From the human T2T-CHM13v2.0 reference genome, Homo sapiens, in the NCBI RefSeq assembly GCF_009914755.1, contig NC_060926.1: a DNA stretch of 64,000 nucleotides. The stretch is one strand, 5' to 3'. Shown here piece after piece: positions 871 through 6,400 of the stretch (position 1 is its first letter; each line of letters opens with the position of its first letter). The notes beneath the pieces were generated by a model. That model was not told the DNA's origin, ran no database searches, and saw only the letters and a program-made list of their open reading frames with translations. The position numbers and the translations under genes were made by a program.

Positions 871-1677
871 GAATATTGTTTCTTCTTGGGTTCTATTGTA
901 ATTCTAATCCAATTCTGGATTTTCAAAAATCATCTTTGATTAATATACCTGGGGCTTAATCTGTAATATATTTGGTCTTTGTCCTAGGTTCTACAGGGGT
1001 CTTTGTTCCCATCTACATTCTTGACCACTACGCTATATTGCCTCTCTAGAGAGTGATATGTTTTCTCTTCCTATGGGGTTTTAATTTCTGAAATTAAAAA
1101 ATGGCTAATATAAGACATTGCACCTAGCTGGGTGTATGATAGGCCTTGGGGAGGGGCCAATAAGATCCTCACATATTTTTTATTATACCCTTACAGGAAA
1201 ATATTCACTTTTCCCAAAGCAAAATACACTATCATTTAGACACTATAATTTCTAGATATTGTAGAAATAGAAGAAAAATCAAAAAGCTATTTTTCCTACT
1301 CTGTACTCACTACTCACACACTCAATACAACACTTCTGGCTCCAGATGTATGGGATTTCTTTCTCACACACACTGTGTGAGAAAACAATCAATCCTGCAG
1401 TAGACTCTCCAGCAGACACCATCTGGCTGTCCTTTAATTCCATTCTGACACTACCTACCTGGAGATGATGTCAAATCCTGAAGGTTGCGAGCTCAGTCCC
1501 ACAAGATTATGCCCACTTCAGATGTCAGTTGAAAGCCCCAGGTTGTTACCTATGCTTCTGAATGACCACTGGGTTCTCACAACCCCCTCCTCAGGGCTTG
1601 ATTAATTTGCAAGAGTGGCTCAGAACCCAGGGAAATACTTTATTTACATTTACTAGTCTATTATAAAGAATATTACA

Positions 1678-1968
1678 GGCCAGGTGTGGTAGCTCACGCC
1701 TGTAATCCCAGCACTTTGGGTGGCCGAGGCGGGCGGATCACCTGAGGTCGGGCATTCGAGACCAGCCTGACCAACATGGTGAAACCCTGTCTCTACTAAA
1801 AATACAAAAATTAGCCAGGCGTGGTGGTGCACGCCTGTAGTCCCAGCTACTCAGGAGGCTACTCAATCGCTTGAACCCGGGAGGCTGAGGTTGCAGTGAA
1901 CCGAGATCGTGCATTGCAATCCAGCCTGGGCGACGGAGCAAGATCCGTCCAAGGAAAAAAAAAAAAAA
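1678..1968 (+). mobile_element. Full-length AluS forming the 5' part of the chimeric insertion
   Basis: ggccaggtgtggtagctcacgcc start, dimeric structure, A-tail 1951-1968; no TSD copy after its own tail. Confidence 0.95.
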
Positions 1969-2125
1969 GAGGTAGCCGCCGCAGGTCGCTTCAGCTGTGA
2001 AGCCCGGTAGGAGCCCTCTGGGTGTAGCCCTGCCTGCCGGGTGGAGCCCCGCGGGTTGCCGCTGCCGCTGCCATGAAGAAGCAGTTCAACCTCATGAAGC
2101 AGGTGGCCAACCTGACCATGGGCGG
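1969..2125 (+). pseudogene. ARHGAP17: Retrocopied 5'UTR and first coding exon of ARHGAP17 (RICH1)-like gene
   Basis: GC-rich leader and Kozak gctgccATG at 2073 encoding [17 protein letters not shown], versus the recalled ARHGAP17 N-terminus MKKQFNRMKQLANQTVG; similarity stops after 53 coding nt. The symbol denotes the parent gene. Confidence 0.85.
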
Positions 2126-2240
2126 CCTTTCAACCCAGCTCCTGCACCCAGCGGAGGTGCAGATGCGGGAAAAGCCTCTGCAGCAGCATTTGACAGATGA
2201 TGCCCCAACCCATCAGGTCCAAGTCCAACCAGGTTCCTAA
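2073..2240 (+). CDS. Intact 55-aa chimeric s[58 protein letters not shown]; translation unproven
   Basis: Translated by hand: ATG 2073 to TAA 2238-2240; below the 60-aa cutoff of the ORF track. Confidence 0.25.
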
Positions 2241-2259
2241 GAAACACAGCAGAGGAGCA

Positions 2260-3115
2260 GGGATTGGCATCTGCTCACTCTTTGATCTATTTGATTTCAG
2301 GTGGTTTGGTTTATGCGGATCCTGGGTAAGAAGAATACTCCAAACTTGGTGTTATCTTCCTAACAGGCATTATAATAGTCTCCCTGGTATATGTATTCTC
2401 TCAAAGGTTTTAAGTGCTTCCATGCAGCCATCTCCAGAATGTCAAATGGTCTCTCTTCAACTGAATGACAAGAGATGAAAGAAAGGTGTGACCATGAGGA
2501 CACCATAACCAATGAATGACGTGCTGAGACCAGAAATCCAAAATCATGGTAACTGAGAGTAGCACAAAGGCTCTAAGTTTTGGTCACACTCTTACCTAAA
2601 TGAGAACCTGACCAAAAGGGAAGTTTTTTTAAACAAAATTATGGGAGGCCATTGTTTTGGACTGAGCTCATGAGCTGGGACCCAATAGACCAAACCAAAC
2701 CAAAATGGAGTCCCTCGTGCTAAGACTTTAAGGAAACACATAGATCCTAGAACAGACCACAGACCAGGTTTTGTTTTTCTTCCTCAAATCTCTATAACAA
2801 ACATTCCTCACAGCATAGGTATCCACCCTGTGAGGTTCCCATTAAATCTTTTAACCAAATTCATTTCCTCTCACCTAGAGATCATCAAGCTTCAGGACAT
2901 GCTACAAGGGTTCCAGCCAGTACCAGGTGGAGACACCACCCCTGGCCATCAAGGAGCTACCCTTCCTCCACAAGACAGAGCAGGACAAATGTTCCATGAT
3001 CCCCAGTAGGTAGGGACTACACCCCAAGCCAGCATGAAGCAGTTACGGAAGAAAGACCATCAGTCTCTCCACCTGCCATAAAGATTTACTGGAATCCCGT
3101 CTTTCAGGGAGGAAA
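2260..3115 (+). mobile_element. ERV1 (MER4-group/MER51-int-like) env C-terminus and 3'UTR with polypurine tract
   Basis: Degenerate env TM/cytoplasmic tail (WFGLCGSWVRRILQT...ILSKVLSASMQPSPECQMVSLQL); PPT agggaggaaa 3106-3115 directly before the LTR TG. Confidence 0.75.
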
Positions 3116-3440
3116 TGAGGCAGGAGAACAGGACTTGGAGGCAGGGAGCCTGAGGACTTCCCAGAACCAAATCAAATGGAAACACTTCAGCTATGACAGG
3201 AAATACCCTCTCCTTTTACATAGGGCGTACACCGAATAAATGACTTTGTAACTTCACCCTTTTCATTTATGTAGGGCGTACACCAAGTAACCAGTGGAAA
3301 CCTCTAGAGGGTATTTAAACCCCAGGAAACTCTGTAACTTGGCCCTTGAGCCACTTGCTTGGACCCACTTCCACCCTGTGGCGTGCGCTTTCATTTTCAA
3401 CAAATCTCTGCTTTTGTTGCTTTGCTCTTTCAAAAAAAAA
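3116..3440 (+). mobile_element. MER51-type 3' LTR (U3-R only) ending in a poly(A) tail
   Basis: Starts tgaggcaggagaacagg; TATA-like tatttaaa at 3312; degenerate PAS aacaaa 3399-3404; A9 at 3432-3440; U5 absent. Confidence 0.8.
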
Positions 3441-6400
3441 GAATATTACAAAGGAAACAGGTGAACAGCAGATGGAAGAGATGCACTGGGCAAGGCATGT
3501 GGGAAGGGGTGTGCAGCTTCCATGCCTTCTCTGGGCATGCTACCTTCTAGGAACCTCCACATGTTCAATTATCCAGAAGCTCCTCAAATCTCATCCAAGA
3601 ATTTTTATAGAGCTTTATCTTTGGCTCTCTCCCTCCTTTCCCCACCCTAAGTCACCTCATTAGGATAAACTCAGGTGTGACCAAAAGGTCTTGAAACAAA
3701 AGACACTTTTATTACTCAGGAAATTCTAAGAGTTTTAGGAACTTTGTACAAGAACCAAATATTATAACAAAAGATGCTCCTGTCACTCTTATCACTCAAA
3801 AAACAACAAGGGTTTAGAAGGTCTATATCAGGAAACGAGGACAAAAACCATACACATTTCACATTAAACCACAGGTAAATTAATCAAAGATTATTTTTTG
3901 AAAATCCAGAATTGGCATCAGACAAACAATAATTCAAAAAATTTGGAGGGGCTTCCAGATGGCTAACTGAAGGCATCTGGTACTCACCTCCTCCACAAAG
4001 AAGAACCGAAATAGCAAGCAGATAATCACACTTCAAATAGATCATCTAAGAGAGAACACTGAAATTCAACAGAAAAGTGACAAGAAACATCTAAGCAAGG
4101 AAGGAGAGGAAAGTGAGGCAGCCTTCTCCGCCAGGATCAGCTGGGAGCCTGGAGGGGCTCCCGAATGCAGAGAAAGGGTAAGCGAAATACACCCTGAAGT
4201 TCACATCCCCACCGTGAACTCCTGTAATCCTAGCCATAGGAGACCCCCTCAGCCCACACAGGCCCTGAGACTGTACAGAGAGCCGCCTGGAGACCGAGCA
4301 ACTGCATTGCTCCAGAGAGGAGGCTCACACTGGGTCCCACCCCATGCCCAGTCCTAAGCAACTACAGAAAGGTGCCATATTGACAGCCCAGTCCCCACCA
4401 GACTGCTTCCTGCCCAGGGGCCCAACAGCCCCTGCCTGTTCACATCCTTGGAGCCACATTGACATATCCCACCCACTAGCACTGCTGTATTAGGGCTGAA
4501 ACACAAGTCATTGACAAAGACCCCACTCCCGCCAGCAGCAAAGTTGCTGTGCATTTTCACAGACCTGAACACAAACTCTCACACCCTCAGCTGCCACCAC
4601 TGTGGGCTGCTGCTACCAAGGCCAAAGTGCTAGCAAAGACGGCACTCCCCAGCTACCTGTATGGCTGCTGCCACTGAAAGCAACCCCATCCTCCCAAGTA
4701 GCAGGCTGAAGCACAGCCACTGCCACACCCAACCAAAGCACTCCACTGAGGGCTTAGGGATCACCCAACCCCGGCCTACCACAGCCAGAGCCTGCATGCA
4801 CCACTATGGGATTTGAGGACAGGTCCATCCAGTCTGGCTCTATCCCCTGTGCCCCAGTGCATAGGATTGCTGTCTGGAGGCCTGGAGGCTGCCCAGCCCA
4901 GTCCACCACCATTGGCACCTGAGCATTTATCCCAGGGGCCTGAGGTCTGGCCTACCCAACTTGCCACTACAACCACAGTTGGCACCCACCCACATGTACC
5001 GCCTGTGAGCCTGGAAACTGGCCTGTCAAACCTATTGCAGCCACCACCAACACCAGCACAAACCACTTGGAAGCCAGAGTGTTGTCCTGCCAATGCTACT
5101 ACCATCACCCACGCCATGCCAACTGCCCACAGGACTGAAAACATGCCCACCTGGCCAGCCCACTGCTGCCACTTCCAGCACCTGAGCAAGCTGCCTAGAG
5201 GCCTAAGAATTGGCCTGCCTGGACCTGCTAACACCAGTGCCATGTACACTGCCTTGGGGCCCAAGGACAAGTACACTTGGCCTACAGCTGCCACCATTAG
5301 GGCTCAAAGATAGGTCCACCTAGCATTTCCATTCCCAGCAAAACTTCACCACTGCCTCCACTAATAACCACACCATAAGCCACTAGGGAAATCACAGACA
5401 CCACTGACGTTGAAGAAATCATGCAGAGACTACACTACTGCACACACCCAGAATCAAGGCCAAAGTGCTGTACCCAACCAACACCATAGATACATCTTCA
5501 GAAAAAAGTTTTCTCCTAAGAAAGCAAATTCAACAGGTTAGAAGAAACAACTGTAATACCAGATATGCGGATACATGAAAAAGCAAGGAAATATGACACC
5601 TCCAAAAAAACACAGTAATTATCATAAAAGACATGTACAAAATCCTGGAAAAAGAATTCACAATAATGATACTAAAGAAGCTAAATGAAATATAAGAGAA
5701 TACAGAAAAACCATACAAAAAAATCAGTAAAACAATTCATGATATGAATGAGAAATTTACCCAAGAAATAGATATCATTAAAAAAAAAACCAAACTAGAA
5801 TGAAATACAAAATACATTTGAAAGCTTCAGTAATAGACTAGATCAAGCAGAAGAAAAAAAAAAGAAATTCTAGAACTGCATAATTTATTAAATGAAATAC
5901 AAAATACATTTGAAAGCTTCAATAATAGATTAGATCAAGCAGAAGAAAAAAAAAACAGAATTTAAAGATGGTCTTTTGAAATAAGCCAGACAGAAATAAA
6001 GAACTTAAAAATAAAGAATTAAAAAGAATGAACAAAGCCTACATGAAAAACGGGAGACACCATAAAACAGGCAAATATTTGAATTTTCAATGTCTCACAA
6101 GGCAAAGAGAAAACAAAAGGGACAGAAAATCTATTTAACAAAATAATAGCTGAAAACTACCCAAGTTTAGCAAGAGATTTAGACATCCAGGTAGGGGAAG
6201 CTCAGAGATCTCCAATTAAATACAATTCAAAAAGATCTCCTCCATGGTACATTATAGTTAAATTGTCAAAAGTAAAAGACATATAGAGAATTCTAAAAAC
6301 AACAAGAGAAAGGTGTGTCGTTACTTACGAGGGACCTCCCATCACACTAACAGGGCATTTCTCAGCAGAAATCTTACAGGACACAAGAGAATGGATTAAT

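What the first reader, a model, noticed from the sequence alone, without database searches (positions are those of the whole stretch)
1665..3450. Tripartite chimeric retrocopy: Alu + ARHGAP17-like exon 1 + ERV/MER51 poly(A) end inside one TSD
Seen: the 13-mer AAAGAATATTACA sits at 1665-1677 and 3438-3450, and the MER21 host reads through when the interval is removed. Inside, all in the same orientation, are a full-length Alu with its A-tail, a GC-rich mRNA leader plus ARHGAP17-like first exon, ERV env/3'UTR and an LTR cut at its poly(A) site. The Alu has no TSD of its own. Established: L1 ORF2p target-primed reverse transcription (TPRT) can switch templates and fuse a Pol III RNA 5' to an mRNA copy. 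Inference: ORF2p copied a polyadenylated gene-ERV fusion mRNA to near its 5' end, then jumped onto an Alu RNA tail. A repeat annotator would probably report this as unrelated Alu, ERV and LTR pieces.
Basis: partly seen in the sequence, partly recalled or inferred. Interest (0 to 1): 0.82.

Follow-up and report, generated by a model that had tools for sequence, protein, structure and literature searches.

The report
Alu plus lncRNA–LTR retrocopy, shared duplication
An old L1-made copy of a spliced chromosome-16 RNA that ends in an LTR element sits directly behind an Alu inside one target-site duplication; it is an ordinary kind of retrocopy, and the Alu was probably there first.

Summary
The observation largely holds. 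AAAGAATATTACA occurs only at 1665-1677 and 3438-3450. In 12 of 19 other copies of the host repeat the two flanks are contiguous through a single copy of it. Between them lie a full-length Alu with an A14 tail and a processed retrocopy.

Three corrections:
- The leader does not come from ARHGAP17. It comes from a degenerate paralogue of its exon 1 about 92 kb upstream on chr16 (86% vs 78% identity).
- Window 2126-2273 is a second chr16 exon, joined at an exact GT..AG junction. It is not ERV sequence.
- "env", "MER51" and "MER21" could not be verified.

The 3' part is the internal end plus LTR of a large LTR family. It stops at the poly(A) site, where 10 of 11 family LTRs run about 75 nt further. 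No family copy lies in 110 kb around the chr16 exons.

The Alu junction does not require a template switch. The retrocopy has its own A9GA direct repeat, and A14+GA is 16 nt, the nick spacing reported for insertions behind A-runs. Nested insertion is about 0.55 and a single-event chimera about 0.3. Only primate orthologues can decide. Interest is low to moderate.

The parts
1402..1664 (.). Host repeat, left part (old multi-copy repeat; the name MER21 is not verifiable here)
   Evidence: 39 non-self matches at 72-77% identity, mostly from query positions 73-77 (window about 1402-1406) to the end of the query; contiguous with the right part in 12 of 19 copies.
1665..1677 (+). Left copy of the 13-bp target-site duplication AAAGAATATTACA. 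It is preceded by TTAT, giving bottom strand CTTT/AT, a loose L1 endonuclease site.
1678..1954 (+). Full-length Alu body, about S-age. Non-CpG divergence 16/220 and CpG positions 8/40, measured against a majority consensus of 54 Alus.
1955..1968 (+). Alu A-tail, 14 A.
1969..1970 (+). GA that matches neither alignment of the chr16 source. It equals the two bases after AAA in the TSD. It is either the end of a second, A-rich TSD (A(n)GA) or filler or cap-derived bases.
   Evidence: read from the alignments.
1971..2125 (+). Copy of exon 1 of a chr16 transcript. The source, G000:C16:25386479-25386628(-), is a degenerate paralogue of ARHGAP17 exon 1. ATG at 2073.
   Evidence: 86% identity over window 1972-2123; shares the R>L, L>V, Q>L and V>M substitutions with the paralogue, not with the true exon 1.
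2126..2273 (+). Copy of exon 2 of the same chr16 transcript, 11.2 kb downstream in the source. It carries a 15-nt deletion and lacks the last 6-9 nt before the donor. Positions 2274-2281 are ambiguous between exon 2 and the LTR element. A stop at 2238-2240 closes a 55-aa ORF.
   Evidence: 92% identity, window 2149-2281 vs C16:25375222-25375351(-); protein-level match from residue 16; flanked in the source by ..GACAG| and |GTATGG.
2274..3115 (+). Internal 3' region of a multi-copy LTR element. It starts right after the family's pyrimidine-tract AG and ends in the purine tract AGGGAGGAAA.
   Evidence: 33 of 39 primary rows start at query positions 300-312 and none earlier, at 77-86% identity. 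AG at the aligned position in 8 of 9 copies.
3116..3431 (+). LTR U3-R, starting TGAG. It is cut 27 nt after the poly(A)-signal position (AACAAA at 3399-3404; AATAAA in 6 of 11 copies). U5 is absent.
   Evidence: 20 of 41 rows start at exactly query position 117 and 28 of 41 at 111-123; 10 of 11 copies continue about 75 nt to ..AACA. TG..CA ends in 4 of 4 solo copies.
3432..3437 (+). Poly(A). The A-run is 3432-3440, 9 A in all, and its last 3 belong to the TSD.
3438..3450 (+). Right copy of the 13-bp TSD.
3451..3615 (.). Host repeat, right part.
   Evidence: right-flank matches run to window positions about 3485-3615 in other copies.

Best explanation
There were probably two sequential L1-mediated insertions at one site in an old host repeat.

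First, an S-age Alu inserted and made the 13-bp TSD.

Later, L1 ORF2p nicked at that Alu's A-tail, primed on the poly(A) of a cellular RNA and copied it to about its 5' end. The new copy therefore sits directly behind the tail, in the same orientation. Its own short A-rich duplication, A(n)GA, is hidden inside the first TSD.

The copied RNA started at a duplicated ARHGAP17-type promoter and exon 1 on chr16. It was spliced to a second exon 11 kb downstream, and then joined to the last roughly 840 nt plus U3-R of an LTR element, whose poly(A) signal ended it. That last join was most likely made by splicing into a cryptic acceptor.

Shown: the RNA origin, the exon 1-exon 2 splice, the poly(A)-site end, the TSD and the chr16 source. 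Inferred: the order of the two insertions, and how the LTR part was joined.
For: - TSD and host continuity.
- Exon 1|exon 2 junction at window 2125|2126 falls exactly on GT..AG in the chr16 source, with an 11.2-kb intron removed.
- The window shares four derived substitutions with the paralogue at C16:25386479-628. The true exon 1 lies at C16:25294833-961, with RhoGAP exons 63-68 kb downstream on the same strand.
- The LTR stops at the R/U5 poly(A) site.
- The LTR-element part starts within the 3-nt ambiguity directly after an AG that is preceded by a pyrimidine tract, seen in 8 of 9 family copies.
- The retrocopy has its own direct repeat, A9GA, at 1960-1970 and 3432-3442.
- A14+GA is 16 nt, which fits the rule that A-run plus TSD is about 15-16 bp, and the sense bias for insertions directly behind A-runs: PMC2836564, passages.
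- From the same passages, Alu self-insertions in sense number 15,759, against 452 catalogued Alu/LINE-1 chimeras (PMC13174262, section 12). The prior therefore favours nesting.
Against: - The second TSD is low-complexity, so only its GA is informative (chance 1 in 16). The GA could also be a cap-derived G plus a mutated base.
- The A-run lengths may have changed since insertion.
- A nick inside or at the edge of a pure T-run is not the canonical TTTT/AA site.
- The ages of the Alu and the retrocopy are not distinguishable. Alu private non-CpG changes are 14/220. The retrocopy lineage has 9 (or 11 with the unpolarised ones) in about 230-270 sites. Fisher p = 0.13-0.54.
- Exon 2 stops 6-9 nt short of its GT donor, so the splice model needs an extra 9-nt deletion between CTC repeats.
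- No family LTR or internal sequence lies within C16:25290001-25400000.
Confidence: 0.55

Rival explanations
1. In a single TPRT event, ORF2p copied the spliced lncRNA-LTR fusion RNA to its 5' end and then switched template onto the A-tail of an Alu RNA. The result is one chimeric insertion with one 13-bp TSD.
For: - One perfect 13-bp TSD encloses both parts, and neither part has a complex TSD of its own.
- Both parts share an orientation, the Alu is full length and the mRNA copy reaches about its 5' end.
- The ages are compatible.
- Sense, full-length Alus fused 5' of L1 within one TSD are documented: 452 cases, mostly from the AluJ/S era (PMC13174262, section 12).
- The extra G at 1969 could be cap-derived.
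Against: - Nesting into an Alu tail predicts the same architecture.
- The A9GA repeat around the retrocopy and the 16-nt A14+GA spacing are unexplained coincidences under this model.
- Pol III Alu RNAs normally end beyond the A-tail, so landing inside the tail is an additional requirement (established knowledge, recalled).
- The base rate of chimeras is lower than that of insertions behind A-runs.
Confidence: 0.25
2. Double template switch in one TPRT event. ORF2p started on a polyadenylated LTR-element RNA, jumped at a short microhomology onto the chr16 lncRNA near the end of its exon 2, and then jumped again onto an Alu RNA. This would be a true tripartite chimera.
For: - The exon 2/LTR junction is not a clean donor-acceptor join. 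Window ..GGCATCTGCTCACTCTTTG.. overlaps exon 2 (..GGCATCTGCTCCTCTGG|GT) and family copies such as L005 (..ATCTAGCTCATTCTTTG..) in an imperfect microhomology patch.
- No family element lies in 110 kb around the source exons.
- The best family copy is only 82-87% identical, and none of the copies scored lies near chr16:25 Mb.
- Double jumps are described in PMC2104539 (abstract and section 8).
Against: - The LTR-element part starts directly after a strong acceptor-like AG, and the exon part ends within 9 nt of its donor. Both are unlikely for random jump points.
- Exon-retroelement chimeras with splice-site junctions and no surviving source element in the intron are already reported and attributed to cis- or trans-splicing (PMC13174262, section 13).
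- All the objections to the Alu jump apply here as well.
Confidence: 0.07
3. Nested insertion as in the best explanation, but with the lncRNA and LTR parts joined by a template switch or by RNA ligation or trans-splicing between two separate RNAs, rather than by cis-splicing at the chr16 locus.
For: - No family element in C16:25290001-25400000.
- Microhomology at the junction.
- Trans-splicing and RNA ligation are proposed for similar cases (PMC13174262, passages and section 13).
Against: - The join is precise on the acceptor side.
- The gene body further downstream, about C16:25.19-25.29 Mb, could not be scanned.
- An element that was polymorphic or later deleted cannot be excluded.
Confidence: 0.1

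Closest known systems
L1-mediated processed retrocopy (processed pseudogene) of a spliced Pol II transcript
   Same: Intron removed at an exact GT..AG junction. The 3' end lies at a poly(A) site and is followed by A's. There is a 13-bp TSD at a loose TT/AAAA-type site, and the source locus is on another chromosome.
   Different: The copied RNA is a fusion of two lncRNA exons with the 3' end of an LTR element. The LTR-element part has no counterpart at the source locus today.
Exon-retroelement fusion transcripts that were retrotransposed (17 mRNA or lncRNA/LINE-1 chimeras in PMC13174262, section 13; SVA with MAST2 exon 1, recalled)
   Same: The first exons of a host transcript lie in sense 5' of a retroelement, and the element part begins next to an acceptor AG. 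The source element is missing from the intron, as for MAP3K13 and FHIT in that paper.
   Different: The 3' partner here is an LTR element that supplies only the poly(A) signal, so mobilisation was in trans. Exon 2 stops 6-9 nt before its donor.
Template-switch chimeric retrogenes: Alu/LINE-1 chimeras (PMC13174262, section 12); tripartite chimeras (PMC2104539); Buzdin-type U6/L1 chimeras (recalled)
   Same: A full-length, sense small-RNA-type element lies 5' of a polyadenylated copy, all inside one TSD.
   Different: The 5' partner ends in an A-tail, which is itself a preferred L1 target, so a sequential insertion cannot be excluded. The 3' copy has its own A9GA repeat.
Sense insertions directly behind A-runs of existing Alus (Levy, Schwartz and Ast, PMC2836564)
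   Same: The insert sits immediately after an A-run in the sense orientation. A-run plus short TSD is 16 nt (A14+GA), within the reported 15-16 bp.
   Different: That paper's hotspot is the internal A-rich linker, and its inserts are Alus. Here the target would be the terminal tail and the insert a retrocopy.

Membership tests
L1-mediated processed retrocopy | Introns removed at canonical splice junctions relative to a source locus | tested here: met
   Window 2125|2126 corresponds to ..GGGCCG|GTCGGC and ..GACAG|CCTATC at the chr16 source, 11.2 kb apart.
L1-mediated processed retrocopy | 3' end at a poly(A) site, followed by an A-run | tested here: met
   It ends 27 nt after the AATAAA position. 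10 of 11 family LTRs continue about 75 nt. A9 follows.
L1-mediated processed retrocopy | Target-site duplication of 7-20 bp at an L1 endonuclease-like site | tested here: met
   A perfect 13-bp repeat. A single copy is present in 12 of 19 other host-repeat copies. The site TTAT/AAAG is only a loose match to TT/AAAA.
Template-switch chimeric retrogene (Alu + mRNA in one TPRT event) | Unrelated transcripts in the same orientation inside one TSD | tested here: met
Template-switch chimeric retrogene (Alu + mRNA in one TPRT event) | Neither part has flanking repeats of its own | tested here: inconclusive
   The Alu alone has none. The retrocopy is flanked by A9GA at 1960-1970 and 3432-3442, which is low-complexity, so it is neither proof nor exclusion.
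Template-switch chimeric retrogene (Alu + mRNA in one TPRT event) | Both parts arrive together in phylogeny (orthologous empty, partial or filled sites) | not testable with these tools
   No primate genomes are held. Relative dating by substitutions is inconclusive.
Nested insertion behind an Alu A-run | Insert directly after the A-run, in sense, with A-run plus TSD about 15-16 bp | tested here: met
   A14+GA is 16 nt. The rule comes from PMC2836564 passages. Present-day run lengths may differ from the originals.
Nested insertion behind an Alu A-run | Host Alu older than the insert | tested here: inconclusive
   Alu: 14 private non-CpG changes in 220 sites. Retrocopy lineage: 9-11 in about 230-270 sites. 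Fisher p = 0.13-0.54.
Spliced exon-retroelement fusion transcript | Element part begins at an acceptor AG | tested here: met
   AG after a pyrimidine tract at the aligned position in 8 of 9 copies; the ninth has a gap there.
Spliced exon-retroelement fusion transcript | Upstream exon ends at its donor | tested here: not met
   Exon 2 in the window lacks the last 6-9 nt (CTCCTCTGG) before |GTATGG. A later 9-nt deletion would have to be assumed.
Spliced exon-retroelement fusion transcript | Element present in cis downstream of the exon | tested here: not met
   No match in C16:25290001-25400000. The region further downstream was not scanned.
Copy of ARHGAP17 (or ARHGAP44) exon 1 | Best genomic match is the gene's own first exon | tested here: not met
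   78% identity to the exon encoding MKKQFNRMKQLANQTVG(R) at C16:25294833-961, against 86% to the paralogue at C16:25386479-628 with shared derived changes. No chr17 hit.
Endogenous retrovirus (env / MER51 label) | LTR with TG..CA ends, purine tract, poly(A) signal and short TSD | tested here: met
   TG..CA in 4 of 4 solo copies. The 4-bp flanking repeat is perfect in 1 of 4 and matches 3 of 4 bases in 2 of 4. Discrete 5' edge at window 3116. 421 genomic matches to a 35-mer against 0 for the control.
Endogenous retrovirus (env / MER51 label) | Recognisable retroviral protein domains (env TM) in the internal part | tested here: not met
   No significant retroviral Pfam hit in 5, 46, 18 and 71 frames; the best was GP41 at E=0.18. 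Two PDB searches gave no retroviral hit. Decay may hide the domains.
Endogenous retrovirus (env / MER51 label) | Repbase/Dfam family name (MER51; host MER21) | not testable with these tools

The most novel reading that the evidence does not exclude
The whole interval 1678-3437 is the product of a single TPRT event. ORF2p copied a spliced lncRNA-LTR fusion RNA to its cap and then jumped onto an Alu RNA, and possibly had already jumped once from an LTR-element RNA onto the lncRNA. That would make it a human multi-part chimeric retrocopy with an intact 13-bp TSD. PMC2104539 (section 8) says the two human tripartite elements known in 2007 had no identifiable flanking direct repeats.
Probability: 0.3. 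Interest if true: 0.45.

Novelty: new member of a known kind. Interest (0 to 1): 0.25.

Why it matters
It matters modestly, in three ways.

1. The retrocopy is a fossil of a transcript from a duplicated ARHGAP17-type promoter and exon 1. At the time of copying, that transcript still had its ATG and was spliced to a second exon. The chr16 source has since lost the ATG and acquired a frameshift.
2. It records a fusion to an LTR element that is no longer found within 110 kb of that locus. Published exon/L1 chimeras show the same puzzle.
3. It is a caution for catalogues of template-switch chimeras. When the 5' partner ends in an A-tail, a shared TSD does not show a single event.

No function is suggested by anything seen here.

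Tried and rejected
- Source of the LTR part. blastn of window 1969-3437 against C16:25290001-25400000 found only the exon matches. A genome-wide 35-mer pattern search gave 421 matches but listed only the first 100, none near chr16:25 Mb, so it is uninformative for that region. 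Genome-wide DNA searches scored only the top 40 of 2020 and of 1147 candidates. The best identities were 82-87%, so no clear source copy emerged.
- The 'env' label. Pfam was run on 5, 46, 18 and 71 frames and gave no significant retroviral hit. Two PDB searches gave nothing retroviral. A roughly 9.7-kb chr1 stretch with a family LTR at one end and internal plus LTR sequence at the other showed no detectable retroviral domains.
- Relative dating of the Alu and the retrocopy was inconclusive.
- Rejected: the Alu was part of the source transcript. The 100 nt upstream of the chr16 exon 1 paralogue are GC-rich and not Alu. The nearest same-strand Alu match lies about 1.36 kb upstream or further.
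- Rejected: the Alu inserted later at the retrocopy's 5' junction. It has no TSD of its own.
- Rejected: DNA-level duplication. The intron is removed and the LTR ends at its poly(A) site.
- Print search for this locus: 'ARHGAP17' with 'retrocopy' found 0 papers. That was the only search made for it.

Full report
**Observation**

The 13-mer AAAGAATATTACA occurs at 1665-1677 and 3438-3450 and nowhere else in the window, even allowing one mismatch. Expectation is 0.37, and 3 of 100 shuffles give 2 or more matches.

The stronger evidence comes from the host repeat. The left flank (1330-1677) belongs to an old multi-copy repeat, with 1421 first-look candidates, 40 scored, at 72-77% identity. In 12 of 19 other copies, the window's right flank begins exactly where one copy of the 13-mer predicts. 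In 6 it is offset by indels or a roughly 300-bp insert, and in 1 it has no match. So 1678-3437 is inserted DNA bounded by a genuine target-site duplication. The site, TTAT/AAAG, is a loose L1 endonuclease site.

**Anatomy of the insert**

- *Alu.* The body is 1678-1954 and the A14 tail is 1955-1968. The two arms give SRP-like Rfam hits of 62.8 and 50.5 bits, both below the gathering score of 70.
- *Exon 1 copy.* Window 1972-2123 matches G000:C16:25386479-25386628(-) at 86% and C16:25294833-25294961(-) at 78%.
- *Which exon 1.* The 78% locus encodes MKKQFNRMKQLANQTVG(R), which I recall as the ARHGAP17 N-terminus. RhoGAP-domain exons lie 63-68 kb downstream of it on the same strand. The 86% locus is a degenerate paralogue, with TTG in place of ATG and a 1-nt deletion. 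It shares the window's R>L, L>V, Q>L and V>M changes. The leader therefore comes from the paralogue, about 92 kb upstream of the true exon 1.
- *Exon 2 copy.* Window 2149-2281 matches C16:25375222-25375351(-) at 92%. At protein level the match starts at residue 16 of the ORF. In the source this piece is bounded by ..GACAG| and |GTATGG.
- *The splice.* The window junction 2125|2126 falls exactly on the exon 1 GT and the exon 2 AG, which are 11.2 kb apart in the source. This is a spliced RNA copy.
- *LTR-element part.* From about 2274 onward the window matches a large repeat family at 77-86%. Of 39 primary rows, 33 start at query positions 300-312 and none earlier.
- *LTR boundaries.* Solo copies start at window 3116: 20 of 41 rows start at exactly query position 117, and 28 of 41 at 111-123. 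They have TG..CA ends in 4 of 4 cases.
- *Poly(A) site.* 10 of 11 family LTRs continue about 75 nt past window 3431. The window goes straight into A's, 27 nt after the poly(A)-signal position. The 3' end is therefore the R/U5 poly(A) site of an LTR.

**What could not be verified**

No translated frame from the window, from nine family copies or from a roughly 9.7-kb chr1 stretch gave a significant retroviral Pfam hit. The best was GP41 at E=0.18. Two PDB sequence searches gave no retroviral hit. I therefore call the family an LTR element.

**How the LTR part was joined to exon 2**

The window reads ..GGCATCTGCTCACTCTTTGATC.. at this junction. The source exon 2 ends ..GGCATCTGCTCCTCTGG|GTATGG. 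Family copies such as L005 read ..ATCTAG|CTCATTCTTTGATC...

The element part thus begins directly after an AG preceded by a pyrimidine tract. That AG is present in 8 of 9 copies, which points to a cryptic acceptor. The exon, however, lacks its last 6-9 nt.

Splicing followed by a 9-nt deletion between CTC repeats is my preferred reading. The retrocopy also carries a 15-nt deletion in exon 2. A template switch at the imperfect microhomology is the alternative.

No family sequence lies in C16:25290001-25400000. The gene body further downstream could not be fetched. Published exon/LINE-1 chimeras show the same pattern of splice-site junctions with no surviving source element, and are attributed there to a lost element or to trans-splicing (PMC13174262, section 13).

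**The Alu junction**

Alu/LINE-1 chimeras of this design are catalogued, 452 of them, mostly from the AluJ/S era (PMC13174262, section 12).

A retrocopy that inserted into the tail of an Alu already present would look identical. The sequence gives that reading some specific support:

- The retrocopy is flanked by A9GA on both sides, at 1960-1970 and 3432-3442.
- The GA at 1969-1970 matches neither alignment of the source. It does equal the two bases after AAA in the 13-mer.
- A14+GA is 16 nt. Levy et al. report the same A-run-plus-TSD span of 15-16 bp for sense insertions directly behind A-runs (PMC2836564, passages).

Relative dating does not help. With the ARHGAP17-side paralogue as outgroup, the retrocopy lineage has 9 non-CpG and 6 CpG changes. 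The source lineage has 6 and 2, and 8 changes are unpolarised, over 305 aligned positions. The Alu has 16 non-CpG mismatches in 220 sites, of which 14 are private, and 8 in 40 CpG positions, against a consensus of 54 Alus. Fisher p is 0.13-0.54.

An Alu carried over from the source transcript is excluded, because no Alu adjoins the chr16 exon 1 paralogue. A later Alu insertion at the 5' junction is excluded by the lack of its own TSD.

**Verdict**

The interval holds a processed retrocopy of a chr16 lncRNA-LTR fusion transcript, lying behind an Alu within one 13-bp TSD.

| Reading | Probability |
|---|---|
| Sequential (nested) insertion, fusion RNA made by splicing | about 0.55 |
| Single-event Alu chimera, one template switch | about 0.25 |
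| Double template switch in one event | about 0.07 |
| Nested insertion, with a non-cis origin of the LTR join | about 0.10 |

All of these are known kinds of event, so interest is low to moderate. Cross-species presence or absence is the decisive test, and I could not run it.

**Literature seen**

- PMC13174262: passages and sections 10, 12 and 13.
- PMC2104539: abstract and section 8.
- PMC2836564: passages.
- Buzdin's U6/L1 work and the SVA-MAST2 case are recalled, not read.
- A search for 'ARHGAP17' with 'retrocopy' found no paper.

Noticed in passing
G000:C16:25290001-25400000 (loci L019-L029): There is an old rearranged duplication of the ARHGAP17 5' region. Blocks A (25290.1-25294.96 kb, including the true exon 1), B (25295.2-25305.0 kb, including an exon-2-like piece 7 kb upstream of exon 1) and C (25309.7-25320.5 kb) recur at 70-88% identity in the order B' (25372.3-25377.3), A' (25384.3-25386.6), C' (25389.3-25399.4), all in the same orientation. 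Only in the duplicate does the exon-2 piece lie downstream of the exon-1 copy.
   Followed up: partly
window 2073-2240: The retrocopy keeps an intact 55-aa ORF, from the ATG at 2073 to the stop at 2238-2240 in exon 2. The chr16 source now has TTG and a 1-nt deletion there, while the ARHGAP17 outgroup has ATG. So the source lost its start after the copy was made. There is no sign of function.
   Followed up: partly
L062 (G000:C1:27019401-27029400): A family LTR lies at 107-428 and internal plus LTR sequence at 8506-9770 on the same strand. The spacing resembles a provirus, but none of 89 sense-strand frames (18 of 60 aa or more, 71 of 30-59 aa) shows a retroviral Pfam domain.
   Followed up: partly
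L040 (G000:C3:84024207-84027603): This family copy has an internal tandem duplication in the R region of its LTR. It is visible as repeated matches and as an extra block in the alignment.
   Followed up: no
whole genome: The 35-mer around the LTR poly(A) signal has 421 matches with up to 3 mismatches, 48 of them exact, against 0 for the reversed control. The LTR family is therefore large and this stretch is well conserved.
   Followed up: no
window 4409-4909: A RefSeq-annotated enhancer lies about 960 bp downstream of the insertion, according to the hub's annotation. It was not examined.
   Followed up: no
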